Source: Spizellomyces punctatus DAOM BR117 (Eukaryota). From it: DNA of 64,000 bases. Below are positions 1,753 to 64,000 of this stretch, piece by piece (position 1 is the first letter of the stretch; each line of letters starts with the position of its first letter). The stretch lies in NCBI GenBank assembly GCA_000182565.2, contig KQ257451.1. The stretch is one strand, 5' to 3'. The notes under the pieces are model-generated. The model made no database searches and was not told the DNA's origin. It saw nothing but the letters and a program-made list of their open reading frames with translations. The translations under genes and the position numbers were made by a program.

Positions 1753-2826
1753 TTATGATGCCCACGGCAGACAGTTTTCAGATCTCGCACATTCCCGTCG
1801 AAACCATCTTGTATCACAGCTAATTCGCCATCTTGCTGGTTGGACGACATTATTTGATGACATATGCAATGTATCTAAGCCGATAATGCACACGTCCCCC
1901 ATTTGCACATCAGCCGAGACCCATTGTATATCATCCCGGACCATTCCAAATTTGACGTGAATTTCCTCTGGGTTGTCTGCAATCCACCCACTCTGAGTAC
2001 CGTCCTTGCCAACCCTGCTATTGCCGTACGTAGCGCGGAGTCGAGAGAATTTAGGTGAACGGTGTGATCCGGGTGCCACCACAAGAGAACCAAGAGCGGT
2101 TGTGATGTCCCCAAGAGGAATCCAGGCGGTCGTCACTAAGGGGTAAGATGGAAAGTAGACACGGTCTACATGAGGTCCAGTATATAAATTTCGACCTACA
2201 GCTCGCAGCCACTTATACGGATGGCTTTGGATCTGTTCAGTAGGATGCCGGATAGAGGCAGAGTCCCTGTCATGTCTATCCTGTCGTAAGACCTTCTGTA
2301 CTTCATCACACAGAAGAATCTCAAAAATGCGATACAATGCTGAATGCTCCAGAACTTCTTTTACTGAATCACTGTTCGCCAAATCCTGACGGTTTAGCAA
2401 ACTGGGACTTGCATTGGTATTTTCACTCTTCTTCGTAACCGCGTCCATAACATCGCATCCAGGTTCAAGGAATCCTGTCTTGGCCAGGTCTTGGACAATC
2501 GTTCTCCGTGCTAGAAATACTTGCTCTCGTGGAATCAGTTGGGGAATGTACAGGTATCCGTCCCGTCTGAAGCGTTCACGTAGAAGGCTCGGTGAAGCGT
2601 TGGCAGGCGTCATAAGCATTTCGTTGACCGAGATGCTACCAGTTCCAGCAGATATCATTCGAGGGAAAGTGGAGTAACCTGTCTGACCTTCATTCCCGGT
2701 GTGATTTCCTTTGTCGGACGCCGGAGGTGCATCCTTGTGCCGAGTTCTAGAAGTAAATTCGTAGGGAGCAACTCTCGGTTTAGTTTTCGAGTTCGGTCGG
2801 GAAGGCGGTTTTGACCCGACTGTCAT
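1753..2826 (-). CDS. Phytanoyl-CoA dioxygenase (PhyH)-like Fe(II)/2-oxoglutarate oxygenase
   Basis: 357-aa ORF with FRRDGYLYIPQL, HxD (PHVD), AWIPLGD, GSLVVAPGSH, distal His (LHMS) and RISCDTRW. Confidence 0.85.
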   Translation of the reverse strand: MTVGSKPPSRPNSKTKPRVAPYEFTSRTRHKDAPPASDKGNHTGNEGQTGYSTFPRMISAGTGSISVNEMLMTPANASPSLLRERFRRDGYLYIPQLIPREQVFLARRTIVQDLAKTGFLEPGCDVMDAVTKKSENTNASPSLLNRQDLANSDSVKEVLEHSALYRIFEILLCDEVQKVLRQDRHDRDSASIRHPTEQIQSHPYKWLRAVGRNLYTGPHVDRVYFPSYPLVTTAWIPLGDITTALGSLVVAPGSHRSPKFSRLRATYGNSRVGKDGTQSGWIADNPEEIHVKFGMVRDDIQWVSADVQMGDVCIIGLDTLHMSSNNVVQPARWRISCDTRWFRRECARSENCLPWAS

Positions 2827-3015
2827 CCTGTCATTATCTTCGTTCCAGCTGACTTTTTACAGTGTTGCGTGCGTAGGCAGCACCCATTCCTGAGAGTTTT
2901 TTCGCAAGGTCTGGCTGGAAGGTTTCTCGTAGAAACTGGACAGGCTGTTGGGAGATCACGTGAACCATCCTGGCTCCAACGCTGCCGATTCTTGTGGGAT
3001 GCTTGAGAGTTCAAG

Positions 3016-9600: not shown

Positions 9601-11740
9601 GGAACAATTACTGCCAGCACGACAACAACAATCAACACCCCTACCCCAATACCCCAAAGGGCAAGTTGGCACTTTATGCCATTCCCAACCCGCTTTGCCG
9701 CTTCCGAAATCTCCCCTACTCCCAGTATAATACAACTTGCTGCCACCGCTAGATACATTCCGTTCAGAACCGTGGTGAAGAATGCGGCAAGCACCAGTAG
9801 CGACATAGACCAGCGAAGAGCACACTGGGTTGCGAGTCTCCATTCATTTGGAGGCGCTGTGGGAGATGTTCTTTCATCTGCGTTCTCAGCATGAACCCGT
9901 TTGATTTTCTTCCTACTTCCTCCTAATCGTCTCAATAGCCGACCGACACGGTCCATTTCCTGAGTTCGACCGGTGGTCGTTATCACAATCAAGGTTCCCA
10001 TCGGCCAAAGTCCGTACGCAAAGAAATATGCAAAATCCTTCCATACAAGGAAGGGGACAACTGTGGCAATAATTAGTGCGACAGCTAGAGAGATACGACG
10101 CATGCTGGAACGCAACAGAAAAGGGATCTCCACATTTCCAAAAGCATTCATTACAATTTGGCAGAAAATGACCACCGAATAGATCGTCAACAAGAGCGTC
10201 GGTAGACTGGTTCGGGTATCAGTTAACCAGGTGACATTCAGGACAAGAATAAGTACCAGCAAGCATGCTAGGAGGACGGCACTAGGAATTAGAACGATAT
10301 CCGCCAACGTGAATCTGGATGTGATCGCTCGTAACCAGTGATCGTCCTGCTCCTGGACAACATGGATCGCGTCCAGCCGATTGTGTCGCGGAGTGGTGAC
10401 AGGAGTAGGCAAGCTGCTGATGCGTCGCGAAGATTGGTCTAACCATTGCGAAGGTCGTCGGGGAGCGCCATATACAGAAGCACGACCAGGAACCACGCTC
10501 ATAGATCGTTGCCGATTATAGGAAGTATTCTCGACCGAGCTTAGAGCGGCGCCCCGCTCGGGTCCGATATCATGGACAGCTCTATCTTCGGCGGCGGAAT
10601 GGCTCCGAAAGCAGCACAGCAGAACAAGGATGCACCAAGTCACCAAATAGAACCACTCGTACAGATGTATCCAGACGTCTCCCTCCTCTGCTCCACGATT
10701 GGGACAAAAAATATCGAGCGTGAATAACACTGACAGTGTGGATGTAACAATCGTCAATCCTGACAAGGATAATGTGGCCAACAGCATCTATAGAAAATGG
10801 TCATTCATGTCCCGCTCGGGAGCTTACAGTTATCTAACATTGTAGCTCACCTCAACTTCAATGTATGTCGACCTCGAATCAACAACCAGCCCTCGTAGCC
10901 CACCAGTCACGGTAATTCCAGCAATGATGCCTCGTAGAATTTGGAGACAGACAAAGACTGCCCGCGTCGCATTTCTTAATCCACCTACTGGAACGACTGC
11001 TTCCGTTTTGAGTTGTGCCGCATATGCGCAGAACAATGCGAGGTATAGAACAGATAGTACTACGTAGAAGACGAAAGCAAGTCCCGCCCATGATGTACAT
11101 TGGAATTTGAAGGCGTGCATCCATGACCTACGAGCGCTGTGAGAATAAAATTTGAACCAATGACTTGTATACCAAGCTATTACCGATAGTTCAGGACGAC
11201 CAGAACAAATTGGATGCCGTAGACTAAGATCTCGCACAATGCAGAAACGATGTACCATCCAGGAGTCGATGCCATCACGTGGAGGGCAAATCCAGTGAGA
11301 TACGCTAACTCAACGCTACCGTCAGGCTCATGGGAACTAGGACAGTTACAAGCTACTAAAAGTCACCTTACCTATCCCCAGCAAAATTACGCCTACATGG
11401 AGACAAATATTCAAAATTTGGAATTCCGATAGATTCGTCAGCGCTGCAAAGCCGGTGAAGCGGTTATACTGTCTCAGAGTCTTGATCAGAGAGAGGAAGG
11501 AGGAGAGTATTCCAGAGAGAGCAAGAAGCGCATGCGCTGATGTATAGCCAATCTGCATGGATATAAAATGTACAGTCTAGAAGCTTGTCACTACAGCGCT
11601 TGCGATGTACGTACCTCGGAAATGTAATTAATCCATGGATCATCTGTCGCAAGGTCCCGCCATGCACACGATCCAGCAAAGTCTGAATCCTGTAAGATTC
11701 CGGACGCATAATTACACAAGGTGGTCGACATTGCGGTCAT
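3698..11740 (-). CDS. Giant polytopic membrane protein (~2,545 aa, ~47 TM): 7TM + 7TM + GDPD-like domain + 8 x 4-TM modules + disordered tail
   Basis: Predicted exons 11740-11615, 11576-11372, 11304-11184, 11136-10851, 10787-9477, 9419-9378, 9326-9315 and 9232-3698 join in frame through GT-AG introns (7,638 nt). They include the 1799-aa and 455-aa ORFs. Confidence 0.75.
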
Positions 11741-13788: not shown

Positions 13789-16700
13789 ATGGGGACTGAC
13801 CGCGCGCATGTCCTCTTAGAGGAGACCTCGTACCAAACAGCGTTACGAACTGCGGTTGCAAACTTTGTTGTCGCCGCTGGCAAAAATGACGATGATGAGA
13901 TTCCACGCAAAGTGAAACCTGGCATTATCGTGCCTCTTTCCACTTTCTTCTCGGTCGGTTTGCTATGCTTCTTCGTATTTTGCTGCGTACGGACTTTTTT
14001 TCGAGACATTTACTCCCCCAGGCGAGCTCTGGCAAGGTGAGATGTGAACGCAGCCGGAGGGCAAACTACGGGAGATGTACTTGTGATGACGGCGCTATGG
14101 GAACTGAATCAGTTAATCGCATTTTTTTTATTTTTTTTTTTGAAACTCTTCTCAGCGGGCGACCTCCGCGTCTTCCTAAAGGCTTTCTATCATGGGTGCC
14201 CACATTATTTCGAATGCCAGAATCCCTTTTAGTCAGTACTGTGGGCTTGGACGGCGTCCTGCTCCTTCGCTTTTTCAAAATGGGAGCCCATCTCTTTGCG
14301 GTTTTGAGTTTTTTTGGCCTGAGTATCATTGCACCCGTCAACTACTACGCAAACCCGCCACAATTTGACAACTCTACTGGCATTCTCTACGAAGACGTTC
14401 TAATTCCCGCTCTCACGGTCGAGAACGTTCCCCATCAGTCGCCCTCGCTGTGGATCCATCTGTTCTGTACATGGTTCTTTTCTCTCGTTGCCTACGCCTA
14501 TCTTATAACGTATTATCGGGGATTAGTTGATCTGAAATTGCAATATGTGGATCACGTTTTACGGCGCACCAAAATGAGTAAGATCGAGCTAAGGTCCCTT
14601 ATTGTCTTTGGAATACCACGGGAGCTTCGACATGAGGTCGATCTGGCGTCTTACTTTGAAGGCCTCGGCATTGGCAGAGTGGAGAACGTAGTAATATGTC
14701 GCAAGTGGTCCCGTCTAAGAGAGGCGGTGCAGAACCGTGCGTATTACTTGACAAAACTCGAGAAAGTCTATGCTGCGGTTATGAGAAATCTTCATAAGCG
14801 CCCCCCCGCTAGCGGGCTTCCTATGTTCCGGAACGGTAGCTCCGGAAGTACCGCCACGGCTGGACCAACCTTGCATTCTGGGTCAGCGGATTCTGGGCTT
14901 GGAATTGATCTAGGCGGACGCGGCAGTGAGGAACGATTTGATGTGGCGTATAGCCCCGATGAAAGCGAGGATCCAGGTTCAGAAGCGTACCGTCCGCTCG
15001 CACCTGTCGGACGACGTTTTACAACCTCGGATCCTGTTGACGCCAGTATATTCGAGTTGATGAGTCGGTTAGACGCTGTCGATCCCCGAAAGCGACCGAC
15101 CCATAGAACGGGTTTCTTGGGCCTGCGCGGACCAATTGTCGATTCAGCCGAATATTATGCGGACAAGTTCAAAGAATGGGATCGTAAGGTTCGGAGGCTG
15201 AGAAGAGTACCAGAGTCCAGTCCGGCCACTTCGGCCGGATTCGTAACCTTTGAGTCGCCTGAGAGCGCGGTATGTGGTCATATCTGGAGATGAGCGTTGA
15301 TATTGGGCTCATCGCAGCTTTTACTTTTGAGTAGATCCTTGCCTCACAGGTTCTTATACACCGGCGACCATTTGCATGCATGGCACGGCAGGCGCCAGAA
15401 CCCCGTGACATATTTTGGGTCAATCTTTCATCCAAAGTTGCTGTTAGCTACATCAAGATGTTTCGTTCTGTCGCTGTGGCAGCCACGCTATTTGTATTGG
15501 TGTTTTTCTCAACTATTATCGTTACTGCTATCTCAGCATTGATCAGTTTGGAGAAACTGCAAAAGACATTCCCAGGATTGACCTCATTCCTTGACAACCT
15601 TGGACCGGGTTGGACGCAATTCATCCAAGGGGTTATTCCAGCTGTCGTTACTGCAGCGTGGACCTCTAGTCTTCCTGCCGTCTTAATCCGTAAGTAAATC
15701 TGATGCTCAGACATCCCTTGCTGCCGTAGTCTGAAATCACTAATCAAACCTCATATGGAACAGTTCTGGCGCAAGCTCAAGGTTTAGAGGCGCAGAGCTG
15801 GATCGACGCATCGGTGTTGTCCAAGTAAGCTGCCCACGGATGCTTTCTGAAGGAGGGTGCGCAATCTGATCCACTTTTTGCAGGTACTTTTTCTATCAAC
15901 TGTGGAATATCTTGCTGGTGCAAACCGTGGCCAGCAAAGTCTGGCAGTCCGTGTATGATATCATTAGACATGGACCTGGAGAGATCATTGATGCGCTTGG
16001 AAGTTTGGTTCCTTCGGTATGCGGAGGCCGTGCTTTTATCTCCAGCAAGGTTCTAATCACCTCATTTCACGCGTAGGCGGCGCCGCTGCAAATCAATTAT
16101 GTGATGCTTCAAGCAACAGCGGTTTATCCAGCTCAACTTCTCCTTGTCGGTCCCCTGATATTGACATGGCTAACGCGCATGGCACCTTGGAGTAGAAGCA
16201 CTCCGCGTCAAGTTTCTGACGCATACTATCCAAGTGTCTTAACAAGTATCAACTACGGGATCGCCTACCCTGTGCCTATTTTGGTTTTTTGTGTGGGCTT
16301 AACTTATGCACCTGTCGCACCACTTATTCTTCCATTTTGTACCATGTTTTTTGCAATTGCATGGTTTGTTTATAAGGTGAACCGAAATACCTTTTCGTCA
16401 TGGTACGATGGCCTCTGTAGCTGACCAGAATTTTTGGCCTTCATAGTATTTGCTTCTTTATGTGAATATTCCGCGTTATGAAACTGGAGGCAAACACGCA
16501 CCAATGGTAGTCAGAAGATGCCTCGCTGGCATACTCATCATGCAGATGACAATGATGGGTGTTCTTGCACTCAAGGCTGGGTCTGGAATCAAAACTCAGC
16601 ACCACGGTGATGACGAGAACGGTTTTTTCATAATGGATGATAAGGGAGGTGCAAAGTTGCGTTGGACGGGATACGTCCAGATGGTTGTTGGAGTTATGCC

Positions 16701-17835
16701 ACTATTGGTCATTACGAGCCTTCTTTACTGGTGGTTTAAGCACGGTTTTGAACAGTTGGTGGAAAACACCCCATTAGATGTTGTTGGAGCTGTTGCGAAG
16801 GACCTAGCTCGAAGTCGGAACGATGTTGGTGCGAGCACAGACGCATTGGTTGTTGGGGACCTGGAGAAAGGGAAAGAACTGGCGACCGTTACTTCGGGGC
16901 GTCGAACAGGAAACACCAATGGGACGATGAGCAAACGAGCATCAATCAGGGCCATTAGGGGACGGGTGCGAAAAGGTAGTACAGGGGCTGGTGACCGAGG
17001 CATAGGGCAAAAGGAAGACAGTGATGAAGACTGGATGCGAGAGACGTCTGACCATAGGCCGCTATCTACCGCGACCGATCGAGAGGTGCAGTCGTCGTCG
17101 AGAGGGCCGGTGGGTGCTGCGAGTTCGCCCACAACCTCAGATGTGAATGACCAGGCATCTTCCCCGACACGCTTCGACATGATCAACGAAGAGTCGTTTG
17201 ACGGACAAGCCTATCGCTACAGCCATGATTTATACGGTGGCGATGATGAGGCAACTAGCTTACTGATAACTGAAAACGACGAAAGTCAGTCACTGTTACA
17301 TGATGATCATGAACACCCGCCATCTGACATCGAGGATGGCACACCGACGCCTCATTTGGAGCCTCCAATGACGCGGGTGCCAGGCATTCTGGATGCTCCA
17401 TTCATATCGGCTACAGCTATCGTACCCGCTGGCGATGAGGCGGACAATACAGCCTCACTATATTTTGACAATGAAGAGGATGATCTTCAGATTCATACAT
17501 ACGTCCATCCTGCTCTGATTGGTCGCCTTCCGGTGGCATGGGTACCGGGGACGAGCCAACCGCGACGGATCCAAGAAGCGAGGGAGGAGCAGCGGCGGGA
17601 ACAGAAAGAGTTATATCGGCGTATCGTTGGAAGACAACGAGTCGGCGTATGGGAGTTGGCTGATGGTGATGACACTGCAGGTAGAAGTACCAATAGCGCG
17701 GGGCAACATACAAGTCGGGATGGAGTGCCGGGTGATGTGAGGGTAGGACGAAGAAGAAGAGATAGCGGTGTAGTCAGGAAAGTGTTGAGCTTTGTGGATG
17801 GAGTGACGAGTTGGGCACACTTGAGCATGAGTTAA
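13789..17835 (+). CDS. OSCA/TMEM63/CSC1 (RSN1-like) stress-gated cation channel, multi-exon
   Basis: GLDGVLLLRFFKM, LTVENV, AGFVTFES, APEPRDIFWVNL, GLTYAPVAPLILPF and YETGG motifs. Confidence 0.93.
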
Positions 17836-17893: not shown

Positions 17894-20056
17894 TCAGCAG
17901 ATGGGAACATTTACTGCCAATCCCCCCTGACTGGTTTCCTTGTATTTCGATTGCATATCCACGCCCTGAATGTGGAGTCCGTTTAACACTGGTGCATGAC
18001 AGTGATGCGGCAAATCATAAGACTCCATACGTACCGTTTGCCTCATCGTCTCAATCACATTGTCCAAACTCACTCGATGGGTTCCATCGCCATTTAGCGC
18101 CAGTTGGGCTGCAGTGACAGCTTTAACTGCTCCAAGAGCATTCCTCTCGATACACGGAATCTGTACCAACCCCTTGACTGGATCACACGTCAAGCCCAGA
18201 TTGTGTTCCATGGCGATTTCCGCCGCATTCTCGACCATTTCCACACTAGCGCCCATAACAGCTGCGAAGCCAGCAGCAGCCATGGAACACGCCACACCGA
18301 CCTCCCCCTGACATCCCATCTCAGCTGCGGAAATGGAGGCTCCACGTTTGTAGAGCATACCTATTGCCGCAGCAGTGAAAAGGAACTCGGTGATGTCTGA
18401 TTCGTGAGCACTAGAATCGCTGGCGTCAGAGAAGAATTCGAGGTAGTATTTGAGTACAGCCGGAATGACACTAAAGTCCAAAGAAAGAGTCAATTTTCCA
18501 AACATCCATTTTTGCATACTGTATGTGCTCGCAAATCACATCCATACCCAGCTGCACCATTTGTTGGAGCTGTGACTACTCGTCCTCCTGCAGCATTCTC
18601 CTCATTCACAGCAATAGCATAAGCACTCAAAAAGTCCAAGGCAGGAAGAACCATTCGTTTACGATTTCTTCGCCTGAGGACATCCACTCCATCTTTGTGA
18701 TACTGCGACACACCCTTTGACCGTTGCGCGGGCACTGGAGTAGATGTTGATTCTGCCCGTCCTACACCACCGCCACGCTGGCCATAAATGCCTCTTTGCA
18801 ATTTTTGATACAACCCAGGCGCTCGCCGCTGGACTTTGAGCCCCCCTGGAAGCACGTCATTTTTATCCGCCAGACATCCATTTTCAATACTCTTGTCCAT
18901 CACCTCCCAAATTTGCTTGGTCTTTCGTCGGATCTCTTCAGCTGATCTCCATCTGCGCTCGTTTTCCCAGACGACTTGGGCAATACTCATTCCTTCTCGA
19001 TGACAAACCTCCAGCAGTTGTTGGCCGTTACGAAATGGTAGGGCAGCGGTTGTTACAGCCAAGTCTTGATTCTTCCTACCCTCTTCTACAGCGCTCGGAT
19101 CGTACGACATGTAGTACACGTTTTCACCGTGGGCGACACGCGTACGTTCATTCACAACGAAGCCACCACCGATTGAAAAATATTCGTTGCACGCTACGAG
19201 CTCTGCAGATTCATCCATGGCAAGGAAGCGCATGCCATTGGGATGTTGAGGGAGGGAAGCTGCGGGGTGGAAGATGAGGTCACGAGTCGGGTGAAAATCA
19301 ATTGGGTGAGTCCCGTTGAGTGTGAGGGTGGAGGTTTCGGCGATCGTACGGCATCTGGTTGGAATGGAATGAGCGTCTACCTTTTCAGGAGCTGTGTCCA
19401 GAGGTAAGCAGATAGAAAATGTGACATGCAAGACAAGCAATCGATGCGCAACGAACCTTCCCCTTCCAGTCCCATAAGAATAGCATTGCTAGCGTCAAAA
19501 GAACTCAGCTTTGCAGCAAGAATTAGACGATTAAGACTGTCATACGTACGGTGTGCCGTGTCCTTCTCCCGTTAACGCCAGACTTCCATACAAATGCACC
19601 TTCATAATTTTGACCCGCTCCAATACTCCGGCTTTCCTCAAATCCTCCAAAAAGATTTTGGCTGCTCTCATTGGTCCGACAGTGTGACTATCGACAGCCA
19701 CTGGGTCAGTTGGACGCGAATGAATACAGAAAGATTTGAATTTCGTAGCCTTACCTGGAGCTTGGCCCAACCCCGATGCTGAACAGATCAAATGTACTGA
19801 CAACAGCATGATGGTCGTCGTTGAGTGGGGCAGATGTTACAGCTGGCGTTTCCGCCACTATCGGCCGCTGGACTGGTGACAGGATAGGTTCGACGTCAAA
19901 GGCTGAGGCGCTTGACAAGCGTCGTGCGCTGCTGCCATTGCCAATAGGTTTCAGGAAGCATGCAGACGGGCGTGGGTATCGGTATGAAAGAAGACGGCGA
20001 GTGCAACGAATAAGCGGTGCGTGGTTGGAGGTAACAGCCGGTCGTAGGGACGCCAT
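17894..20056 (-). CDS. Fe-S-dependent L-serine dehydratase (SdaA-type, single chain) with a probable mitochondrial presequence
   Basis: [90 protein letters not shown] and [12 protein letters not shown]; Arg/Ser-rich N-terminus. Confidence 0.93.
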
Positions 20057-38200: not shown

Positions 38201-39980
38201 TCTGTGTTGCCATCCCCACCACCCGAGATCGTCGAGCCCAAACGCGTATCTTCAGATCCAACGCGAACGGGTCTCGTTCACTCAAAGTCTAGCTCCTCAC
38301 TGGTCCTGGAGAAGTCTGGAAGAACAGCGGGACCTCCTGCGTTAGAGCACTCGCACTCGGCCTCGTCTCTTTTTCCCAATACCTCCAGACTTTCTCCATC
38401 GTCATCTGCGAATCCACAGAGACCTCGCCCTGTGTCATGGGTAGCGGGTCCTTCCCCGATTTTGGTGAGTAAAATGGTCATTTCTGAGAACCCAGATGTA
38501 GCAATCCTAATTTTGATGTTCACAGCAACCGGAACCTAAAAGATTCTCAGGATATCCGGAAGGCGAAGCACCGTCCCCTCCTCCAAAGACGGGCAGCTCG
38601 CCAACTAAAGGCAGTGCACTTCCACCGTCTTCTCTGCAAGCGATTCCAGTTGCACAAGGTCAAGGGCGTCCGCCGGCGCCGACACGCGTTCACTCAAGCT
38701 CGGCAAGCTCGTCCTCAGATCTTTTTAGCTCTGGCGAATCTTTTTCGCCGGCTGCGAGAACAGAGCAGTCTACAGACGGACCATCCCGCCCAATGTCCTC
38801 CGGCTCTGGATATCCGCGTAGTGAACTGGCACCAGGACGCCTTCCAGGGAGCAATGCATTGCCGGGAACTGAGTATGCCCAAGGGGGTGCGAAGGGGTAT
38901 CAGCAAGCTATATCAGTTCCGGACGCGACACCTTCTCGTCCTCAGGCAAACGTGGCTCCTGTTTACGGCGGTCCAAGCCCATATTCTTTGCAGAAAAGTA
39001 GACAGGACGTACCACCAACTTCTCGCCATTCGTCCGGGGACTATTCCGCGCAGATCAGTCCGCTGGGATACCCACCCGTGAAGCCCGTTGACAATCCAGC
39101 TCCACCTCTACAAACGACGCGGCCGTCCGCCCCCCTTAGAGGCACCGGGTATCCTCAGGAGACCGATCCCGCCAATATCCGCTCGTCATCTACTGATATC
39201 GCCTCGAAAGCATATCCCCCGCGTATAAAATCCCGTGGTGCTCCACTTGTGCGGCCACAAGGTGTCTCGCCGCCATTGCAGAGTCAACAGCGCGGAGACG
39301 AAGTGGAGCGGACGTCGCTGCCAGCTACAGCGTCAGGGGGTGACGACATGCGGAAGGGCAGTGCACGATCTTTTGAAGAGTCGAGACCGTCCAGTCGCGA
39401 CGCGGAAGAAGAACAGCTTAAAGCAGCCATTGCAGCATCATTGCTGGAAAGTAATACAGGGCGTCAACCGCCTTCATATGGTCACTCGAGTCGTCAGCCG
39501 GCAGACCGAACCACTCCTACTCAACCGCCCAATATGCGCACTGAGCAACAGCCTTCTTATCCATCCTCTGACCACGTTGTCGCTCCTTCCACACCGCCTC
39601 TACAAGTACCTAATTACCCTCCTTTTCGAGCACAATCACCTCGCCCGCCGCTATATCGACAGGCAGCATACCGCCAAGCACCTCTACCACAATCCCAACA
39701 ACCGCCGGCACAAAACACCCCGCCGTATGGATATTATCCGGGTCAAAGTCCTCCCGTGAGTTTCTATCAGCAAGCTCCAGGGCCATATCAGCAACCGCAA
39801 GGACCATATCGGCAAGCTCAGTATCAGCAGGCACCGCTGCCGTCAAGTGCATCCGCTAGACCGACCTCACCGGGTGGACAAATGTATCATAGGAGTGCGC
39901 AAGGCCCCCAACCCCCAAATTACCCTGGTGCACCTTCATACGGACCTTATGGGTATCAAGGGAGACCTGAGCAGCGGTAA
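35248..39980 (+). CDS. Sec1/Munc18 (SM) family protein with a long Pro/Gln-rich tail containing a UIM
   Basis: WKVLVVE, EAIYFITPS, LKELNIDF, ILVLDRSVDPFAPLIHTLTYQAAAHD, DKLRLIL, IHRYVP, GLSFAEVR and IGSTNLVTP; the tail splices in frame (38464/38526). Confidence 0.9.
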
Positions 39981-40882: not shown

Positions 40883-42308
40883 CTAATGTCCATGGATAAG
40901 GCGACTTTCCTTTTCCATCATCATAAGCGGTTGATGGACCATGGGTTGAGGGCCAGCTGGTGGAGGACGAACACCCAGAGGATTTTTAGAGTAGCTCAAG
41001 CGAATGCCGCCCTTTGTCGAGTTGCTGAGAGGATTGCCATAGAGCTGAACAAGGGCTTGCGTCGCGCATTGCACGTCTTCAAACTCGACAAAACACATTG
41101 GTCCGTTCGGTCTGCTACGGAAACACATTCGCTTGTATCCCGGACAACGAGAAAAGAGTTGCCGAAGTTCCTCCTCAGATGTGTCATGTGGGAGATTGCC
41201 GACATAGAGTGTGTTGCATGGTGGGTTTTGGTCGCCGTTGGAACGAGGACCGTAAGGTCCCAGGCCGGTTGGACTAGTTCCGGCAGAGCTTGACGCACTA
41301 GAGGCACTACCGCTACAGCTACCCGTGCTACCGCTGGGTGTGGTGTTCATACCGAGAATAGAGAGTCTGGGAAGTAGGCTTTCGCTACTGAAAAGTGCGC
41401 TGCTGAATCCTCGCTCCGAGAACGACTGACTGCGAGCCACCGTTGTGGGGGGTGATGGACCATTGTCCAAAAAGTCATTGTAAGTGTTGGCATCAACGAC
41501 ATTTGGGCGACCAGTCACCATTCCGCCTGGTTGTCCAGGACGCACGTCCATAAACTCTGAGAAGGAGCCTGCTCGTGCAGAGTATGGAGATTCGCTCAGT
41601 GACGTGCGTCCCATCATGGACTCTTGGGATCCATAGAGGTCACACATGTCAATTGGAGACGGGAAGTCAGGAGCACCGAAAAGATCCCGTGTAAGCGGTG
41701 GTGTTGACATTGGTGGTGCGCCAAGGAAGAACGGGTCGGGAAACATTGTGCTATCCTTGGATCCGCGCCGTTGAAGGTGGGCCATTGGGTTCATGCCAAA
41801 GCCGTTGGCGAGGGTAGCGTGATCGATTGACAGACCACGTTTCGTGTGAAGATTCTTCTTTGCCATTTCTGCCTTCAATACGCAGCCTCGCTCGGCGTCG
41901 ACCTTGCGGCCGCTAAGAACGTCTCTGGCCTCCAAAGCGTCAAGGCGAGTTCTAAACTTTGCAAAACCAATCTGTGGGAAAAAATATCGAATGGTTGATA
42001 AGTCAGTGTGAAAAACGTAGCTTGGATAATTTCCAGGACTCACGATTTGCTTCCTGCCATTGTTGGTTCCTGTTCCGTCATCGCTATCGGTTTGTGAAGG
42101 TATCTTGAGTGTGGCAGCTTCAAAGCCAGAAGAGAATGTAAACATGTTTTGAAATTCGCGCTCTTGCATATCATCAGGGAACCCGACGACAAAAATAGTT
42201 GTGATTTCCTCCTGTGTTAAGCAAAAGTAAGTTTGACTTGGAGGATATAGCGACCATCCATTGTTCAGAGAAGCTTACCTGCATGGTTGCAATATGTGCC
42301 ACAGGCAT
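40883..42308 (-). CDS. Two-RRM RNA-binding protein, Scw1/Whi3-like
   Basis: [24 protein letters not shown] and LKAEMAKKN in RRM1; [35 protein letters not shown] in RRM2. Short first exon 42308-42279. Confidence 0.9.
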
Positions 42309-45886: not shown

Positions 45887-48018
<2,132 letters not shown>

Positions 48019-48282
48019 GGGTAAGCGGCTACTAAGATGTGGTCAATGCTGGATCGCGAACCCACTTTGTGGATTTGCAATGTGGCGCAGGCGATCACTG
48101 TAAGCAACATTTGGCAATGATCTTCAATGTAATTTTAATATATTTTGAGCACGGGAACATCTCCGCCAGGTATGGAGACTGATCTCCGTAAAAAGAAAGA
48201 CCACCATGTACAATGCACCGACAACTCCCTTTCCAAGATCCCTCCGTAGTCCACCAACCAGAAGTTAAGCCAAGGTAAATGC

Positions 48283-49481: not shown

Positions 49482-49706
49482 CCTTTCCCAGTTGCAGTAC
49501 TTACCAAGACGCCGATTTCGAGGAAGAGGAAGCAAAACCCACTCGCCATCTTGCTGTCAGTAAATTTCGGAGCGTCTTGTCACGTGACAGCACAATTATC
49601 AGGTCACATGACTACTTGGAGGGGGGCACAGCCGTCGAGATGCCAAAGCAAGCGGAGTTGACTGGGGCATGTAGGAAATGAAGATTGAATTGCGTACGGC
49701 TCCGGC

Positions 49707-52700
49707 ATGCTACCTTGCTTTGCCAAAATGACTATCCAAGCAGAATGGTCTGCAACGAATTCAGCAGGTGGCACAGCGTTGGGAACTGCCCGCCGTTTTG
49801 GCAACATTGGTCTTTTCAAACAACGTACTTACGAAGAGCAAAGAGCTACCAGGCAGAAACTGCCACAACCTGCCAGAGAAGCTTCGCCGAAAGAGCCGTC
49901 AGACCGCAAGCGAGCATCAAGCTTTTTGCTCTCGCTCAGTCGCTCTAGCCTGACTTCCAACCGTGAACTGGCACCCCACAACCGGACCCGTGCGTCGAGC
50001 GCAAGCAGAGACTCTCGCTCCAGTTTATCTGGATCTCCTGTTTGGAGGTCCGGCTCCGTCAGCTCTTCACAAAATTCTTTAAGACGAAGACATTCAGAGA
50101 ACGATCGAACCAAGTCTTCGCCGTATAACTCAAGCATACGCTTCGTTGGTACGACCGGTTCACGCGACTCGGTCGCATCGCAGAGGTCGTCAGATATTGC
50201 CCTCGAACAAAGCAGACATAATCCTCCCAGAGTCGCGGATGATAAAGATTCGGCCTTGAAACGAAGGATAAAAGAGGTGGAAGAGGCGTATGGGAAATTG
50301 AAACGGTCTAACCCGCAACTTAATGAAGCGGGTATCCGAAAGTCCGCTGAAAAGGTTGCGGGTTCTGAAGCGTCGGTGGCGAAACAAAATTACGTTGTTT
50401 CTTCAACTATACCAGCAAAATCCCGCGGGAACCTAAAGCAGAGCATTATAGATCGGCTTACCCCCAGGTCTCGCACCCCGGAGCGGTCAACTTCCAACAC
50501 AGACACGTCCAGTGCGTCTTATCCGTTTAAGTCGGCCACACTACCACCGCCAATAAAAGGCCTTTACGACGATAGCCACAGTCATCCCGACACAAATCGC
50601 ACACACCCCGGCGACATTCTGCCAACACCGCCAACAAGCAGTCCTCCAGCTCGCAAAGAACAGGAGATTGCATATCACTACCATCATCCCCGACGCTTCC
50701 GCCACTCACAAGATATTATTGAAAAGAGTCTATCGAAAGCCCAATTGCGAAACGCCACCTTGAAGGATTTGAATAATAGACGGGAGGGCAGGTTTCGGCG
50801 TGCGAACTCTGAGGGCTACGATTTTGAAGCGCGAAGCCAGATGCCTGGATTGAGGGCAGACCAAAGGCCAAGAGCAAACTCCTTTCATGTGTCTCGGTCA
50901 CATGTCGATCAACCGCATGTCCTACCCAGCAATCCGGAAATCTTGAAGCTATTGTCGATGGACGCAAATTCCAGAAGACGGGCTTTACAGGTATAGCGAC
51001 ACGTCGAATTGTAGATAACAGAAAATTCTAATTATCTGGCATGTAAAGTACACTGTAAAGCGACAACGCCCTCCACGAGGACTTGTAGGGCTCCAGAATT
51101 TGGGCAATACTGTAAGTACAGCCGTCTCATGCTGGAGGGATCGCTCAAATTGCTAAGACATTCCGCCATCTGCAGTGTTTCATGAACTCAATATTGCAAT
51201 GTGCTTTTTCGACGGAATTGCTGATGGGCTACTTTTTATCCGGGGATTACAAGGGTGATATCAACCCTGGAAGTCCGATGAAAGGCCAATTAGCTACAGG
51301 CAAGTGATTGTTCCATACTCTACTGTGTTCATTCACCATGATCCAATTTGGTAACACGATGTTTTACCTACTCTCGGATGTAGCATTCGCCGCACTAGTC
51401 AAGGAGGTCATGAAGTCTAACGCATATAGATCAATCTCGCCGTCACAATTCAAGAGACAATTAGAACACTGGGCACCGCAATTTGTTGGCTACGAGTAAG
51501 TATGGATACCACTCCCGATCATGCAAAATTTTGTGAGTGGTCTATGGTTGAGCATATTTTATAAAAGCTGCTCCCAGAGTGACCCAACGTATCTCTTTTC
51601 TACCCTTTCTTTTTTTTGTGATACATCAGCCAGCAGGATGCCCAAGGTAAAGCCTACGTTCTTGTTGACTCGTTGTACCGGATTAGCTGAGTCTACTACC
51701 CGTGGACAGAGTTCTTGCGTTTCATGCTGGACGGATTACATGAAGACTTAAATCGGGTACAAGTGAGACCTCGTTTTACGTACAAAGATGAGGAGGCAGA
51801 TAAGTTAAGGTAGCTCTTACATCTGAGCGCCGCAGACAAACAATCAGACGTAATGCGCTGACGCCTCGACAGGGATGTTGAAAAGGCGCGACTGTCATGG
51901 AATCGATACCATGCAGTGAATAACAGCGTCATTTTCGGTATGCATACATGATTAATTCCGTGCTATTGTGACAATTATTAACGTCATTCGCATTTAGATT
52001 TGTTTGGTGGTCAACTGCAGAGTACGGTCATATGCCATGGCTGCAATCACCGTTCTGTGACGTTTGACACTTTCTGGGACCTTTCGCTACCCATTCCGAA
52101 GGTTGGTAATAACCATTTTCGCAGCATCAAGAGGTACTTGACTGAGAGTCAGTTACTGTTGGTAGGCATATGCACGTCGATCCGCGCGTTATTCCCTGAC
52201 ACCATCTGGTGAAAGCTGCTCTCTGTCCGAATGTCTCGCCGAATTTGCAATGAAGGAGGTATTAGAAGAGCCTTACAAGTGCGATAATTGCAAAAGTCAT
52301 CAAAAAGCGAGCAAGTCTCTGAGACTCTACCGATGTCCTGAAGTATTGGTTTTACGTTAGTTGAAACGATTTCCGTATTTTGTCCGCCATCATTTTCTGA
52401 TATTTGTCTCAGATTTGAAGCGCTTTACGTACTCTTACTACTCCCGGGATAAGATAGAGGCGAATGTCAAGTTTCCCGCGGAAGGGCTGGTATTGGATGA
52501 GATTATGAGCGATTTAGAAGGTGAGCCACCATGGCCGATATCTGCATGCCCCGACCATCGTCCAACGCGTTTTGCCATAGGGCGTGACCTTGAAGTCCGC
52601 TATGATCTTTTCGGCATATCCAATCACATGGGTGGTCTTGGGGGCGGACATTACATTGCCCACGTCCGTAATATCGATGATGAAGTCTGGTACGAAAAAA

Positions 52701-60680: not shown

Positions 60681-60933
60681 TGTGCGGTAGTTAATCGACG
60701 TAAATGGCACTCGGCCCCAAATATCCGTTCAGAACTGGTGCTTCCTTACAAGAGTTTTCTCACGCAAAAGTGCGCCGGTGTTTTTGAACATGCTTTGGCC
60801 CGCGATGTGGCAGTGATTACGAGTTGTCCGAACGCGTCTTTGTCGCGTCGTATCACGTGAACTCGATTACTGCGCACCATCGTTGGGACGTTCATCTCGT
60901 CCGCGTGCGTGGTTCAGTCAGCAACTGTGAAAG

Positions 60934-63900
60934 ATGCTTTCAGGAACATCACAGTCATCTTTACGCGCAGATGCAGTAGAGTTCACGCCGTCAAGTGCGA
61001 GCTTCCATCCCCAACCACTTCCTTACTATGTCCATGGTTTGACCGGCGCGCAGCAGGAGGCGCACCCTGCTTGCTATGCACCAGCTGCCGAACATGCATA
61101 CCTACTTTCCAATAACGTTCATTATAGAAACATGTTGCCAAGTTGGGAATGGTCATCGTACGGTTTACCTCAGCCACCCACCATGCCACAGCCTCCTATG
61201 GACCTGCCGGTACCGATGGAAGTTGATCTAAGCGACGCCGGAGCTTTCCCAAGACCTCATAGACCAAATATTGGACAGAGAGGCAGACCAGTAAGGCTTC
61301 TTACAAACTTTTACAGAATGTCGTCTCCTGATATAAAAATCTATCATTATGGTAAGTCCCAGATGCTCGGTGAATACGTCATCTGAGTTGCATTGAGATG
61401 AACAGCCTCACCGATAGGAATCTTATTTATGCAGATGTCGAAATCCACCCAGAAAATATTGTTGCAGTCAATCGCAAAGTTTTAGAAGCATGGCGACGAA
61501 TGCCTCGAGATCCTACGCAAAGTCATGTTGCTGCAGCCGCTGTCTATGATGGGCGGAGAAACCTATTTATGCCGACAGAGTATCCACTGGCCAACGAAAC
61601 AACATTCCGGGGAAAGACTCGACGTGAGGAGGTATTTTATGTCGAGCTTTCTGAAAGTGTGGTTGCTGAGGCTGTTGGAGCCCACCCAGTGAAACGGTAT
61701 GTTCTTCTCATTTCCTGGAATCCCACGCGCTCTTATTTACATTGGAACATCCCCAGTGGACCTCAGCGCTACAAACTTCGACTACGAAAGGTAGCAGAGA
61801 TAGACATGGAGCGCCTTCACAAGTTTCTGGACGGCCGTTCTCTAGAGTTGCCGCGAGAGACCATAATGGTTCTGGAAGTCATGCTGCGACATCGTCCAGC
61901 ACTGCTTTTGCAATCAGGTGGAACAGGAGGTGGTTTCTACACCAGCGACGGTGCAATGCGCATTCGGGGAGGACTGGCCATACACCCTGGATGGTATCAG
62001 AGCCTCAGGCCGACCTTTGGTCAATTGTTGTTAAATTTGGATATCTCCTCGACGGCCTTTTACCAGAACGGTTGGTTTCACCAGAGCCCTTCCGCGGTCC
62101 ATAGCAGAGCGCTAAAGTGAGCAGTTCACCTATAGGAGCACTTCTGGATATCGTAGCCCGCTTCTTTCAAAGAGAAACCATTCAGGAAGTCAGTATAGAG
62201 ACGTCGCGCGATCTTCAACGACTTACCCGCTTTCTGCAAGATGTCTCTATAGAAATTACGTACCGCACGACCGGTCGTCGCCGCTACAAAGTGAAAGGCC
62301 TCACTCCCACATCAGCAGTCGAAACTCACCTCACAATTGGCAAAAGTTCATCAATGCAATATATCAGCGTCGCCGAATATTTCAAGCAAAAATATGACAT
62401 TGAATTGGCCCATCCAAATTTACCCTGCGTTACCTCGGGGACGAAGAATGACATTGTAATTCCAATGGAGTTGTGTGTCGTGCGGCCGAATCAGCGACAT
62501 ACTGGGAGACTCAACGATAGACAGGCTTCAGAGATGGTGAAGATTACGGCGTTATTGCCCAAAAACAGACTAGGGAGGATTGAGCAAGGCAAACAGTATG
62601 TCTTTCTTATGAGAACGCAAGTGACCAGGAGTAAGAAAACTAAGACAACTCTCGTAGAGTAATGCACAGCGATGCAGCGCTCTTCGCAGCCTGGGGGGTA
62701 CAGCTCGAGCCGCAAATGGTTGAGATAGAAGGTCGAATTCTACCGCCCCCACAACTCTCATTTCAACCACTTCCTCAGCCGCTTCTTCCCGGCCAGCCAA
62801 ATCTCGCTTCACAAACATCAAATCTGATTGGGATTCCGGAGTTTGGGGCATGGAAGATGGAGCGTACTCGGAAATTTGCAGCTGGTGCTTCACTCAGATT
62901 CTGGTCCGTTGCGGTGTTTGGGGATGAAAAAGACGTTCCTATTGAAACTGTTCAGGCATTTGTTCTGATGCTCATTCACGCTATGGAGGATAAAGGAATG
63001 GAAGTGTATAACCACAGACCAGAGATTGTGTATGGGCCCGCAAGGAGTGAGGTTGCGGCCACATTGACGCTGGCGGAAGAGAAAGCACGGGAGAACCCTG
63101 AAGCTGGCGCCAGAGTCTTGGGTGGGTTATCTGGCCACGCAGAGGTGCAGCTGGTATTGTGCATCATTTCTCAGAAGCATACTGTAAGTCGGCTAGTGTT
63201 CCCTGGATATACGAATCTCACTCAATGCGTTCGTTTGCAATACGTAGGTCTACAATGACATCAAGCGTGTTGCTGAAACCCAAATGGGTCTCATGACACA
63301 GTGTTGCATGTCTCGTCAAGTGCTAAAGCTTGAAGCAGCATATGTTGGCAATCTAATCCTAAAACTTAATACCAAGCTGGGCGGTATTAACGTCTTTGTG
63401 GATCCTGTTAAACAATTGAGATGTTTGGGTGAGCGGACGAGTACCATGATCTTTGGTGCGGACGTGACACATCCACCACCTGGGACCATCGAAGGACGGA
63501 GTATTGCAGCCGTGGTGGGCAGTGTAGACAGCAGGTCAGTTCAGACAATTCGTGATGCTGCCTCTGGTTAGCTCTATAGCTGAATCTCGTCTGATTATTA
63601 AGGTTTTGTGAGTACCGGGCATCGATTCGCATCCAAAATGCCCGGCAAGAAATTATTACCGATTTGGCGTCGATGGCATCCGAGCTCCTCGACCTGTTTT
63701 ACCAACGTGCTAAAATCTATCCCAAGCGGATCATATTTTATCGTGATGGTGTTTCGGATGGTCAATTTACTGAAGTTGCTTTGCAAGAGATTGCAAACTT
63801 GAGGAAGGCGCTTGTGGACAAGGGTGTTCAAGACGCGCGAATTACATTCCTGGTGGTGAACAAGCGACATCATGTTAGAGTTTTCCCAGTGGAAGACGGA

Positions 63901-64000
63901 CTGGAGAGAGGAAGAGTGATGGATCGCAAGGGAAACGCTATGCCTGGGACGGTGGTTGATACTGGTGGGTGTTCTTCTCATTTGCACATGAACAAGGTCA
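60934..64000 (+). CDS. Argonaute (N, L1, PAZ, MID, PIWI); runs off the window end
   Basis: GRPVRLLTNFY, VYDGRRNLF, GWYQSLRP..LLLNLDISSTAF, ISVAEYFKQKY, IPMELC, TQCC, KLNTKLGGIN, FGADVTHP, RQEII, YRDGVSDGQF, KRHH and GTVVDT. Confidence 0.96.

What the first reader, a model, noticed from the sequence alone, without database searches (positions are those of the whole stretch)
60955..60990. Argonaute with an N-terminal PAM2-like (poly(A)-binding protein-interacting) motif
Seen: residues 8-19 read SSLRADAVEFTP within a disordered Pro-rich extension before the N domain. The PIWI residues D (GADVTH), E (RQEII) and D (RDGVS) are intact; the fourth catalytic residue lies outside the window. Known: the PAM2 consensus is x-x-L-x-x-x-A-x-x-F-x-P and binds the MLLE domain of PABP; in animals AGO reaches PABP indirectly through GW182/TNRC6, which fungi are not known to have. 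Inference: this AGO may contact PABP directly, giving a GW182-independent route to deadenylation, translational repression or stress-granule targeting. I am not aware of this arrangement being described.
Basis: partly seen in the sequence, partly recalled or inferred. Interest (0 to 1): 0.8.

Follow-up and report, generated by a model that had tools for sequence, protein, structure and literature searches.

The report
Chytrid Argonaute with built-in PABP-docking motif
The Argonaute gene of the chytrid fungus Spizellomyces punctatus starts with a short peptide of the type that docks proteins onto poly(A)-binding protein, relatives in two chytrid orders keep the same peptide, and this hints at a direct link between small-RNA silencing and the mRNA tail that has not been measured.

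Summary
Window 60955-60990 (+) encodes SSLRADAVEFTP, residues 8-19 of Spizellomyces punctatus Argonaute SPPG_01063 (P0001, 1006 aa), which has the same annotated start. The motif lies in an extension predicted to be disordered (pLDDT below 50 for residues 1-102).

Alone the match is weak. Pfam PAM2 scores 14.2 bits against a cutoff of 20. A loose pattern turns up in 1.4% of shuffles of the extension.

Comparison makes the case. The motif is the only conserved island in the otherwise unalignable N-terminal extensions of 5 of 6 Spizellomycetales orthologues. A Trp variant, LNP[LN]AxEW[TS]P, is present in 10 of 11 Chytridiales-type relatives. A profile of eight of these motifs ranks the Paip2 PAM2 peptide (1jgn_B) first in the PDB. 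A complex prediction with a stand-in MLLE domain gave only weak support.

Seven literature searches found no Argonaute reported to carry PAM2.

The most likely reading (about 0.6) is a real MLLE/PABP-docking motif carried in cis by a chytrid AGO lineage. Binding, the translation start and the functional outcome are untested. S. punctatus has the most degenerate copy (Arg at position 4, Ala at position 5). I rate it a new variant of a known kind.

The parts
60934..63965 (+). Argonaute gene SPPG_01063, cut off by the window end. Exons: 60934-61351, 61435-61696, 61757-62070, 62136-62595, 62658-63183, 63248-63534, and 63603 to about 63965. These encode residues 1 to about 877 of 1006. The last intron runs past base 64000.
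   Evidence: Exons were mapped against P0001. The last donor was placed by eye at GTGGGT 63966, because the script's own pick of 63969 does not fit the protein. Pfam finds ArgoN, ArgoL1, PAZ, ArgoL2, ArgoMid and Piwi on the exon translations.
60934..60936 (+). Annotated start codon. It is the first ATG after the in-frame TGA at 60928-60930 and has A at -3.
   Evidence: The NCBI model has the same start. All 8 of the 187 stored AGOs that begin with MLS belong to the two motif-bearing clades. The codon-usage score is best in frame 0 over 60934-61131: 2.2 against -9.4 and -22.2.
60955..60990 (+). PAM2-type short linear motif SSLRADAVEFTP (residues 8-19), with L10, A14, E16, F17 and P19 at consensus positions 3, 7, 9, 10 and 12.
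60934..61251 (+). N-terminal extension (residues 1-106), rich in Pro, Ser and Ala and predicted to be disordered. It precedes the conserved RPxRPN[IV]GxRG entry into the N domain.
   Evidence: Composition. pLDDT is below 50 for residues 1-102. Apart from the motif it does not align with orthologues.

Best explanation
The motif is a real PAM2-type docking peptide. It is carried in cis on the disordered N-terminal extension of one lineage of chytrid Argonautes, in a Phe/Tyr form in Spizellomycetales (including this gene) and a Trp form in Chytridiales-type relatives.

It most likely inserts its Leu and its Phe/Trp into the two hydrophobic pockets of the MLLE domain of the cytoplasmic poly(A)-binding protein. 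This would tether the small-RNA-loaded AGO to polyadenylated mRNPs without a GW182-type adaptor.

Shown here: the sequence, its conservation, its position in a predicted disordered region and its PAM2 likeness. Inferred: MLLE binding. More speculative still is the outcome. My preferred guess is that the tether concentrates RISC on poly(A)+ RNAs and competes with, or cooperates with, other MLLE clients such as Pan3 and eRF3, rather than forming a full GW182-like silencing domain.

The S. punctatus copy is the most degenerate (Arg at position 4, Ala at position 5) and may bind more weakly than its relatives.
For: 1. Conservation. The pattern L...A..[FYW].P lies in the N-terminal extension of 5 of 6 Spizellomycetales orthologues (P0001, P0003-P0006) and 10 of 11 Chytridiales-type relatives. 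Over these 15 proteins the column counts are L3 15, N4 11, P5 14, A7 15, E9 13, W/F/Y10 10/4/1 and P12 15. This matches the published consensus LNxxAxEFxP and LNxxAxx[F/W] (passages of PMC4466420, and PMC7356810).

2. Island of conservation. In a MAFFT alignment of the five Spizellomycetales extensions, the motif is the only block with invariant residues before the N domain. Full-length MAFFT of 14 proteins from both clades gives L10, A14 and P19 as invariant columns.

3. Specificity. Among 187 stored AGO-family proteins of at least 600 aa (176,176 residues) the loose pattern has 21 hits. Sixteen are in these 15 extensions and 5 are elsewhere.

4. Unbiased look-up. A profile of 8 of the motif 20-mers, searched against 177,635 distinct PDB sequences, ranks the Paip2 PAM2 peptide 1jgn_B first (E 0.0091, 19 bits) and 'superPAM2' 8smo_B second (E 0.045).

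5. Pfam. PAM2 (PF07145) is the only family hit for 8 of 13 motif 20-mers, at 11.9-18.9 bits.

6. Disorder. pLDDT is below 50 for residues 1-102, as expected for a short linear motif.

7. Fungal precedent. PAM2 binding to the MLLE domain of Pab1 operates in a fungus, Ustilago Upa1 (passage of PMC4466420).

8. Complex prediction. AGO residues 1-45 were folded with the 80-residue MLLE domain of a metagenome PABP (L013; Pfam MLLE 108 bits). Verdict: weak support. Score 0.36, best of 3 controls 0.01. The mark was reached by 51 of 78 solved complexes and 2 of 108 mismatched pairs, but at 0.60 or under by only 5 of those 78 solved complexes and by all 4 mismatches that passed (of 180). The runs agree in at least 82% of contacts, and the partner's pLDDT is at least 52. 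MLLE-PAM2 complexes have been solved, so the pass may come from memory. It shows likeness, not binding.
Against: No copy reaches Pfam's gathering score of 20 bits, and 5 of 13 motif 20-mers give no Pfam hit at all. The 30-aa and 139-aa pieces of this protein also give none.

The S. punctatus copy lacks Asn4. PMC7356810 describes this residue as stabilising the beta-turn. It also lacks Pro5, and it fails the ELM-style pattern that I recalled from memory, which 13 of the 15 pass.

Taken alone, the loose pattern arises in 1.4% of shuffles of this extension.

The Powellomyces (P0002) and Irineochytrium (P0187) models lack the motif. I could not tell whether those gene models are truncated.

The host's own PABP could not be fetched because no genome is held, so the complex test used a stand-in and passed only weakly. 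There is no transcript evidence for the start.

Conservation shows constraint. It does not identify the partner.
Confidence: 0.6

Rival explanations
1. The motif is a conserved, functional short linear motif, but its partner is not PABP. It could be another MLLE-domain protein (a UBR5/HYD-type ligase or an Rrm4-type RNA transporter) or an unrelated pocket.
For: Conservation proves constraint only. In Ustilago, PAM2-like variants bind the MLLE domains of Rrm4 rather than Pab1 (passages of PMC4466420). Position 4 is relaxed in Spizellomycetales: R, H, S, S and N.
Against: The chytrid consensus LNPxAxE[WF]xP matches canonical PAM2/PAM2w, not the PAM2L core [DE][DE][DE]FVYP quoted in PMC4466420. 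The top PDB matches are PABP ligands. I could not check which MLLE proteins chytrids encode.
Confidence: 0.18
2. In S. punctatus the motif is a decayed relic. The lineage's ancestral PAM2 is real, but this copy (Arg4, Ala5) no longer binds anything useful.
For: It has the lowest Pfam score of the Phe-type copies that scored at all: 14.2 bits against 17.7-18.9. It is the only one of the 15 without Pro5 and one of 4 without Asn4. It fails the recalled ELM-style pattern.
Against: The residues that the structural paper calls the main anchors (Leu, Ala, Phe) and Pro12 are all kept. The complex prediction, run with this very copy, passed the mark weakly: 0.36 against a best control of 0.01, with the counts and caveats given under the best explanation. 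The motif sits at residues 8-19, exactly as in Thoreauomyces.
Confidence: 0.12
3. The motif is not made at all, because translation starts downstream at Met67 or Met84 and the annotated N-terminus is a gene-model artefact.
For: There is no RNA evidence. No RNA holder is listed. Only 3 reads of run X5 were laid, with no joints or starts. Five upstream ATGs lie within 300 nt of the start.
Against: The frame is open from an in-frame stop immediately upstream. The codon-usage frame signal is as good as in the rest of exon 1. The motif and the MLS start recur in independently annotated relatives, which an untranslated region would not conserve at the protein level.
Confidence: 0.05
4. The resemblance is chance in a Pro/Ala/Ser-rich region and has no function anywhere.
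For: The loose pattern arises in 0.3-1.8% of shuffles of each extension. All Pfam scores are below threshold.
Against: Fifteen of 17 relatives in two clades keep it while the flanks diverge beyond alignment. Sixteen of the 21 pattern hits in 176,176 residues of AGO sequence fall in these extensions.
Confidence: 0.05

Closest known systems
PAM2 motif of GW182/TNRC6 (silencing domain)
   Same: Both are PAM2-type peptides in a disordered region that connect the small-RNA effector complex to the MLLE domain of PABP. The GW182 role is taken from passages of PMC4615383.
   Different: In animals the motif sits on an adaptor that binds AGO through GW repeats. It is flanked by W-rich regions that recruit CCR4-NOT and PAN2-PAN3. 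Here the motif is on AGO itself. The extension has only 2 Trp and no GW or WG dipeptide, so there is no sign of a full silencing domain. GW182 homologues were not detected in fungi (PMC4615383 passage).
Paip2 PAM2 peptide (PDB 1jgn chain B) and the engineered 'superPAM2' (8smo chain B)
   Same: These are the best and second-best PDB matches to the chytrid AGO motif profile. The alignment is ksnLNPnAkEFvP against ssLnPlApEftP.
   Different: Paip2 is a small PABP regulator unrelated to Argonaute. The E-values are modest (0.0091 and 0.045) because the motif is short.
PAM2w of LARP4 and LARP4B
   Same: The motif lies near the N-terminus of an RNA-binding protein, with Trp in place of Phe at position 10, as in 10 of the 15 chytrid AGOs. 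Passages of PMC7356810 report that Trp fits the same MLLE pocket.
   Different: LARP4 proteins are La-module proteins that stabilise mRNAs. The S. punctatus copy has Phe, not Trp.
Upa1 PAM2 and Pab1 MLLE in Ustilago maydis
   Same: [quoted passage not shown]
   Different: Upa1 is an endosomal FYVE protein, and its PAM2 was dispensable for its function. It is not an RNA-silencing factor.
Argonautes with RGG/GR-rich N-terminal extensions
   Same: They share the architecture of a disordered N-terminal extension ahead of the AGO N domain. Chytrid paralogues of this type include P0007, P0020, P0022, P0026 and P0027.
   Different: Those extensions carry Arg-Gly repeats and no PAM2 pattern.

Membership tests
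PAM2 (PABP-interacting motif 2; Pfam PF07145) | Core consensus xxLNxxAxEFxP: Leu3, Ala7, Phe or Trp at 10, and Pro12 | tested here: met
   S. punctatus has L10, A14, E16, F17 and P19. The same columns are invariant or [FYW] in all 15 relatives. The consensus comes from passages of PMC4466420 and PMC7356810.
PAM2 (PABP-interacting motif 2; Pfam PF07145) | Asn at position 4, which stabilises the beta-turn, usually with Pro at position 5 | tested here: not met
   S. punctatus has Arg4 and Ala5. Asn4 is present in 11 of 15 relatives and Pro5 in 14 of 15. Role of Asn4 and of the turn proline, whose consensus position I assign myself: PMC7356810 passages.
PAM2 (PABP-interacting motif 2; Pfam PF07145) | Score at or above Pfam's gathering cutoff of 20 bits | tested here: not met
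   The 20-aa piece scores 14.2 bits (E 0.037), and the 30-aa and 139-aa pieces give no hit. Relatives score 11.9-18.9 bits (7 of 12) or give no hit (5 of 12).
PAM2 (PABP-interacting motif 2; Pfam PF07145) | Lies in an intrinsically disordered, accessible region | tested here: met
   AlphaFold2 pLDDT is below 50 for residues 1-102, with a confident core.
PAM2 (PABP-interacting motif 2; Pfam PF07145) | Binds the MLLE domain of PABP | tested here: inconclusive
   Only a prediction with a stand-in MLLE domain (metagenome locus L013) was possible. Verdict: weak support. Score 0.36 against a best control of 0.01. The mark was reached by 51 of 78 solved complexes and 2 of 108 mismatches, but at 0.60 or under by only 5 of the 78 and by all 4 mismatches that passed (of 180). 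At least 82% of contacts agree between runs, and the partner's pLDDT is at least 52. The host PABP was not obtainable.
Eukaryotic Argonaute (AGO clade) | N, L1, PAZ, L2, MID and PIWI domain order | tested here: met
   Pfam finds ArgoN, ArgoL1, PAZ, ArgoL2, ArgoMid and Piwi on successive exons. The predicted fold has pTM 0.80.
Eukaryotic Argonaute (AGO clade) | DEDH catalytic tetrad | tested here: met
   P0001 contains GADVTH (730), RQEII (770), RDGVS (803) and YYAHLV (942). Assigning these strings to the tetrad rests on recalled knowledge of human AGO2. The fourth lies outside the window.
GW182/TNRC6 | GW/WG repeats, a W-rich silencing domain, and UBA and RRM domains | tested here: not met
   The extension has 2 Trp and no GW or WG. 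Pfam finds no domain other than the AGO domains. The likeness to GW182 is limited to the PAM2 piece.

The most novel reading that the evidence does not exclude
A lineage of chytrid Argonautes has taken on, in cis, the PABP-docking function that animals place on the GW182 adaptor. RISC in these early-diverging fungi would then be wired directly to the poly(A) tail and could repress or destabilise polyadenylated targets without slicing. That would be an independent origin of miRNA-like, tail-coupled silencing outside animals and plants. The shared MLS start and shared motif position would then mark one ancient invention that predates the split of Spizellomycetales and Chytridiales.
Probability: 0.25. 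Interest if true: 0.8.

Novelty: new variant of a known kind. Interest (0 to 1): 0.62.

Why it matters
How Argonaute complexes reach the mRNA decay and translation machinery is well worked out only in animals, where GW182 contacts PABP, CCR4-NOT and PAN2-PAN3. Fungi lack GW182 (PMC4615383 passage), and their RNAi is usually thought of as slicing or heterochromatin-based.

An AGO that carries its own PABP-docking peptide, conserved across two chytrid orders next to paralogues with other N-termini, would be a compact and easily testable alternative wiring. A single peptide and a single point mutant (F17A) would address it. As I recall, S. punctatus can be transformed genetically.

The finding also bears on gene annotation. 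The very N-terminal residues of these AGO models carry the conserved element, so truncated gene models would hide it.

Tried and rejected
- **Single-sequence PDB search.** The first 30 residues gave only chance matches to SmpB (E 2.1).
- **Pfam on longer pieces.** The 139-aa exon and the 30-aa piece gave no PAM2 hit.
- **Whole genome.** None is held. I could not fetch the host PABP, look for GW182-like or other MLLE proteins, or list AGO paralogues in S. punctatus. No second S. punctatus AGO was among the 19 hits, but only the 8000 candidates sharing the most words were scored, so this is weak.
- **RNA evidence.** No RNA holder is listed. Laying X5 (RNA raw reads, about 6 in 100 of the run read) gave 3 reads, no joints and no starts. 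X1-X3 are unspliced, DNA-like contigs. This gives no verdict on the start or on expression.
- **Idea of a GW182-like mini silencing domain (PAM2 plus W motifs).** Rejected for now, because the extension has 2 Trp in 106 residues, has no GW or WG, and its Trp positions do not align consistently.
- **One origin or two.** FastTree (49 rows, all of at least 700 aa) and IQ-TREE quick with LG+G4 (27 rows) each recover the two motif-bearing clades with support of 100. P0004 and P0120 were left out of the 27-row tree as near-duplicates. Neither tree resolves how the two clades relate. An AU test does not reject holding them together (p 0.399), but I named the group after seeing the tree, so this does not show a clade.
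- **Window scan for an MLLE domain.** Ten long ORFs contain none.
- **Earlier findings of this scan.** None concern Argonaute. The PAM2 notes concern giant-virus proteins.
- **PMC12781887.** Its 'PAM2' is 'PAM207', a CRISPR PAM site, and is irrelevant.
- **Supplements.** Supplementary files of papers are closed. Lists of PAM2 proteins or AGO inventories in supplements could hold a prior mention that I could not see.
Full report
**What is there.** The window's last 3 kb encode, on the + strand, the Argonaute SPPG_01063 of Spizellomyces punctatus DAOM BR117. The translation of exon 1 (60934-61351) is 100% identical to the N-terminus of that 1006-residue NCBI protein (P0001). Mapping P0001 back onto the window gives seven exons, which end at about 63965, near residue 877. 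Pfam finds ArgoN, ArgoL1, PAZ, ArgoL2, ArgoMid and Piwi in order. The strings GADVTH, RQEII and RDGVS are encoded in the window. The fourth catalytic string, YYAHLV, is in P0001 beyond the window end.

Residues 8-19 (60955-60990) read SSLRADAVEFTP, exactly as reported. The ATG at 60934 follows an in-frame TGA two codons upstream and has A at -3. The 106-residue extension before the conserved RPxRPN[IV]G entry to the N domain has 16 Pro, 12 Ser and 12 Ala. AlphaFold2, run with a 37-sequence alignment, gives pLDDT below 50 for residues 1-102 and a confident core with pTM 0.80.

**Is the single match more than chance?** Not by itself.
- The pattern L...A..[FY].P appears in 2846 of 200000 shuffles (1.4%) of this extension.
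- Pfam PAM2 (PF07145) scores 14.2 bits (E 0.037) on a 20-residue piece, against a cutoff of 20. It is not reported at all on the 30-residue or 139-residue pieces.
- A single-sequence search of the PDB found only chance hits.
- The copy has Arg at consensus position 4 and Ala at position 5. Canonical PAM2 has Asn at position 4, and passages of PMC7356810 credit it and a proline (Pro58 of LARP4B, position 5 by my numbering) with stabilising the beta-turn between the two anchor residues.

**Comparison with relatives.** A search with residues 1-500 of P0001 returned five Spizellomycetales orthologues at 63-68% identity. Four of them carry the same kind of motif in an otherwise unalignable extension:

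| Species | Motif |
|---|---|
| Thoreauomyces humboldtii | SGLHPDAPEFIP (also residues 8-19) |
| Geranomyces michiganensis | SSLSPAADEFIP |
| Geranomyces variabilis | SNLSPVADEFIP |
| Fimicolochytrium jonesii | RLLNPAAPPYEP |

The fifth, the Powellomyces hirtus model, starts only 16 residues before the N domain, so it cannot be judged.

A full HMMER scan of 1.84 billion representatives with P0001, followed by a pattern scan, turned up a second group of AGOs with LNPLAxEWTP in their extensions. A search seeded with one of them extended the group. Ten of 11 members carry LNP[LN]AxEW[TS]P (names): two from Physocladia, plus Obelidium, two Entophlyctis, Rhizoclosmatium, Podochytrium, Chytriomyces sp. 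MP71, C. hyalinus and a second Blyttiomyces protein. Irineochytrium has no motif. A split E. luteolus model carries the motif in its N-terminal half.

Over the 15 motif-bearing proteins the column counts are L3 15, N4 11, P5 14, A7 15, E9 13, W/F/Y10 10/4/1 and P12 15. This is the published PAM2/PAM2w consensus.

Among 187 stored AGO-family proteins of at least 600 residues (176,176 residues), the loose pattern has 21 hits. Sixteen lie in these 15 extensions. The ELM-style pattern that I recalled from memory matches 13 of the 15. It misses S. punctatus and Thoreauomyces because of position 4.

**Independent look-ups.**
- A profile of eight of the motif 20-mers (alignment A1) was searched against all 177,635 distinct PDB chain sequences. 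It ranks the Paip2 PAM2 peptide 1jgn_B first (E 0.0091) and the engineered 'superPAM2' 8smo_B second (E 0.045).
- Pfam PAM2 is the only family reported for 8 of 13 motif pieces, always below threshold at 11.9-18.9 bits. Five pieces give nothing.

**Start codon.** There is no transcript evidence. No RNA holder is listed, and only 3 reads of an RNA run could be laid. Three indirect points favour 60934:
- The stop codon lies immediately upstream.
- The codon-usage frame signal over 60934-61131 (2.2 against -9.4 and -22.2) is like that of the rest of exon 1.
- All 8 stored AGOs that begin with MLS belong to the two motif-bearing clades. Thoreauomyces has the motif at the same residues 8-19.

**Evolution.** Trees place both motif-bearing groups, each with support of 100, inside a well-supported chytrid AGO clade. 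Paralogues without the motif sit beside them: RGG-rich types such as Chytriomyces P0022 and Blyttiomyces P0007, and a long-N-terminus type such as P0030, P0032 and P0054. So Chytridiales species hold at least three AGO types. The relation between the two motif-bearing groups is unresolved. An AU test does not reject a single clade (p 0.399), but I defined the group after seeing the tree. One ancient origin, with a later Phe/Trp switch, and two independent gains both remain open.

**Binding.** The host genome is not held, so I could not use its PABP. As a stand-in I scanned metagenome contigs with a degenerate pattern for the MLLE signature. I chose a full-length PABP that looked fungal to me (from memory, not a call): L013, with RRMs plus an MLLE domain (102.5 bits on the full ORF, 108.2 on the 80-residue piece). 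I then folded its 80-residue MLLE domain with AGO residues 1-45.
- Verdict: weak support. The score was 0.36 and the best of 3 controls was 0.01.
- The mark was reached by 51 of 78 solved complexes and 2 of 108 mismatched pairs. At 0.60 or under it was reached by only 5 of those 78 solved complexes, and by all 4 mismatches that passed (of 180).
- The runs agree in at least 82% of contacts, and the partner's pLDDT is at least 52.
- The alignments were not used. Peptides and disordered chains are outside the calibration of this test.
- MLLE-PAM2 complexes have been solved, so the pass may reflect memory of them. It adds a little to the likeness and nothing on affinity.

**Literature.** Seven full-text searches listed no paper describing an Argonaute that itself carries PAM2. 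For 'PAM2' plus 'Argonaute', 60 papers hold both terms, and I saw only the listing of the best 25. All of those concern GW182/TNRC6, PABP or unrelated topics.

I read passages, not whole texts, of five papers:
- PMC4615383: GW182 homologues were not detected in fungi.
- PMC4466420: the PAM2 consensus, the Upa1 PAM2 binding the Pab1 MLLE domain in Ustilago, and the PAM2L variants that bind Rrm4.
- PMC7356810: the structural roles of Leu, Asn4, Ala7 and Phe/Trp10.
- PMC6206976: only lists the S. punctatus genome among its data.
- PMC12781887: irrelevant.

Supplements were closed.

**Verdict.** This is very probably a constrained PAM2-type motif that marks a chytrid AGO lineage, and the most economical partner is the MLLE domain of PABP (about 0.6). 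Binding, the start codon and any effect on deadenylation or translation remain untested. The S. punctatus copy is the weakest of the family. It is a new variant of known kinds (PAM2 ligands and Argonaute N-terminal extensions), not a new category. It can be tested cheaply with a peptide and a point mutant.

Noticed in passing
window 60934-60942, and the N-termini of P0006, P0023, P0024, P0120, P0182, P0184 and P0186: Eight stored Argonautes begin with Met-Leu-Ser, and all eight belong to the two PAM2-bearing clades. Two other models have an internal MLS or MLT that could be the true start (P0168 and P0185). This suggests that the very N-terminus is conserved too. Its meaning is unknown; N-terminal processing is one possibility.
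   Followed up: partly
P0006 (Fimicolochytrium jonesii) residues 54-63; P0004 (Geranomyces michiganensis) about residues 39-48: Fimicolochytrium has a second pattern match, LSHTAHPYLP, starting 5 residues after its first motif ends (motif starts 14 residues apart). G. michiganensis has an upstream near-motif, LNPAADFAP, that is one residue short. These may be tandem or decayed copies.
   Followed up: no
P0031, P0174 and P0176 (unnamed metagenome proteins, 2050-2084 aa): This is an Argonaute with an N-terminal region of about 1100 residues rich in Asn and Gln. It holds SQLNPNAAVFTLS, a match to the recalled ELM-style PAM2 pattern, in all three cluster members. The organism is unknown, and the members are at least 90% identical, so they count as one observation.
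   Followed up: partly
P0030, P0032, P0053 and P0054 (Entophlyctis, Chytriomyces, Siphonaria and Rhizoclosmatium): A third chytrid AGO type has an N-terminal region of about 200-350 residues that reads like an RRM at its start. Pfam RRM_1 reaches only 17.4 bits (cutoff 20.7) in P0032 and gives nothing in the other two scanned, P0030 and P0054; P0053 was not scanned.
   Followed up: partly
P0019 (Ceratobasidium sp. AG-I) residues 76-85: The loose pattern LPVLAPVYVP occurs in the N-terminal region of a basidiomycete AGO. It lacks Asn4 and Glu9 and is probably chance.
   Followed up: no
window 3701-9232 (-): An open frame of 1844 residues has no Pfam family at E 1e-5 or better. Open frames at 9423-10787 (-), 38517-39977 (+) and 49689-50993 (+) also have no Pfam match.
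   Followed up: no
window 40886-42274 (-), 46018-48042 (-), 13899-17832 (+), 18493-19488 (-), 1756-2856 (-): Neighbouring genes by Pfam are a single-RRM protein, a glycosyl hydrolase family 47 mannosidase, an RSN1/PHM7-type 10-TM channel, a serine dehydratase and a PhyH dioxygenase. There is no MLLE domain in the ten long frames scanned.
   Followed up: partly
window 61402-61442: One of the three RNA reads laid from run X5 covers the last bases of intron 1. It could come from unspliced RNA or from DNA carry-over. There are too few reads to say.
   Followed up: no
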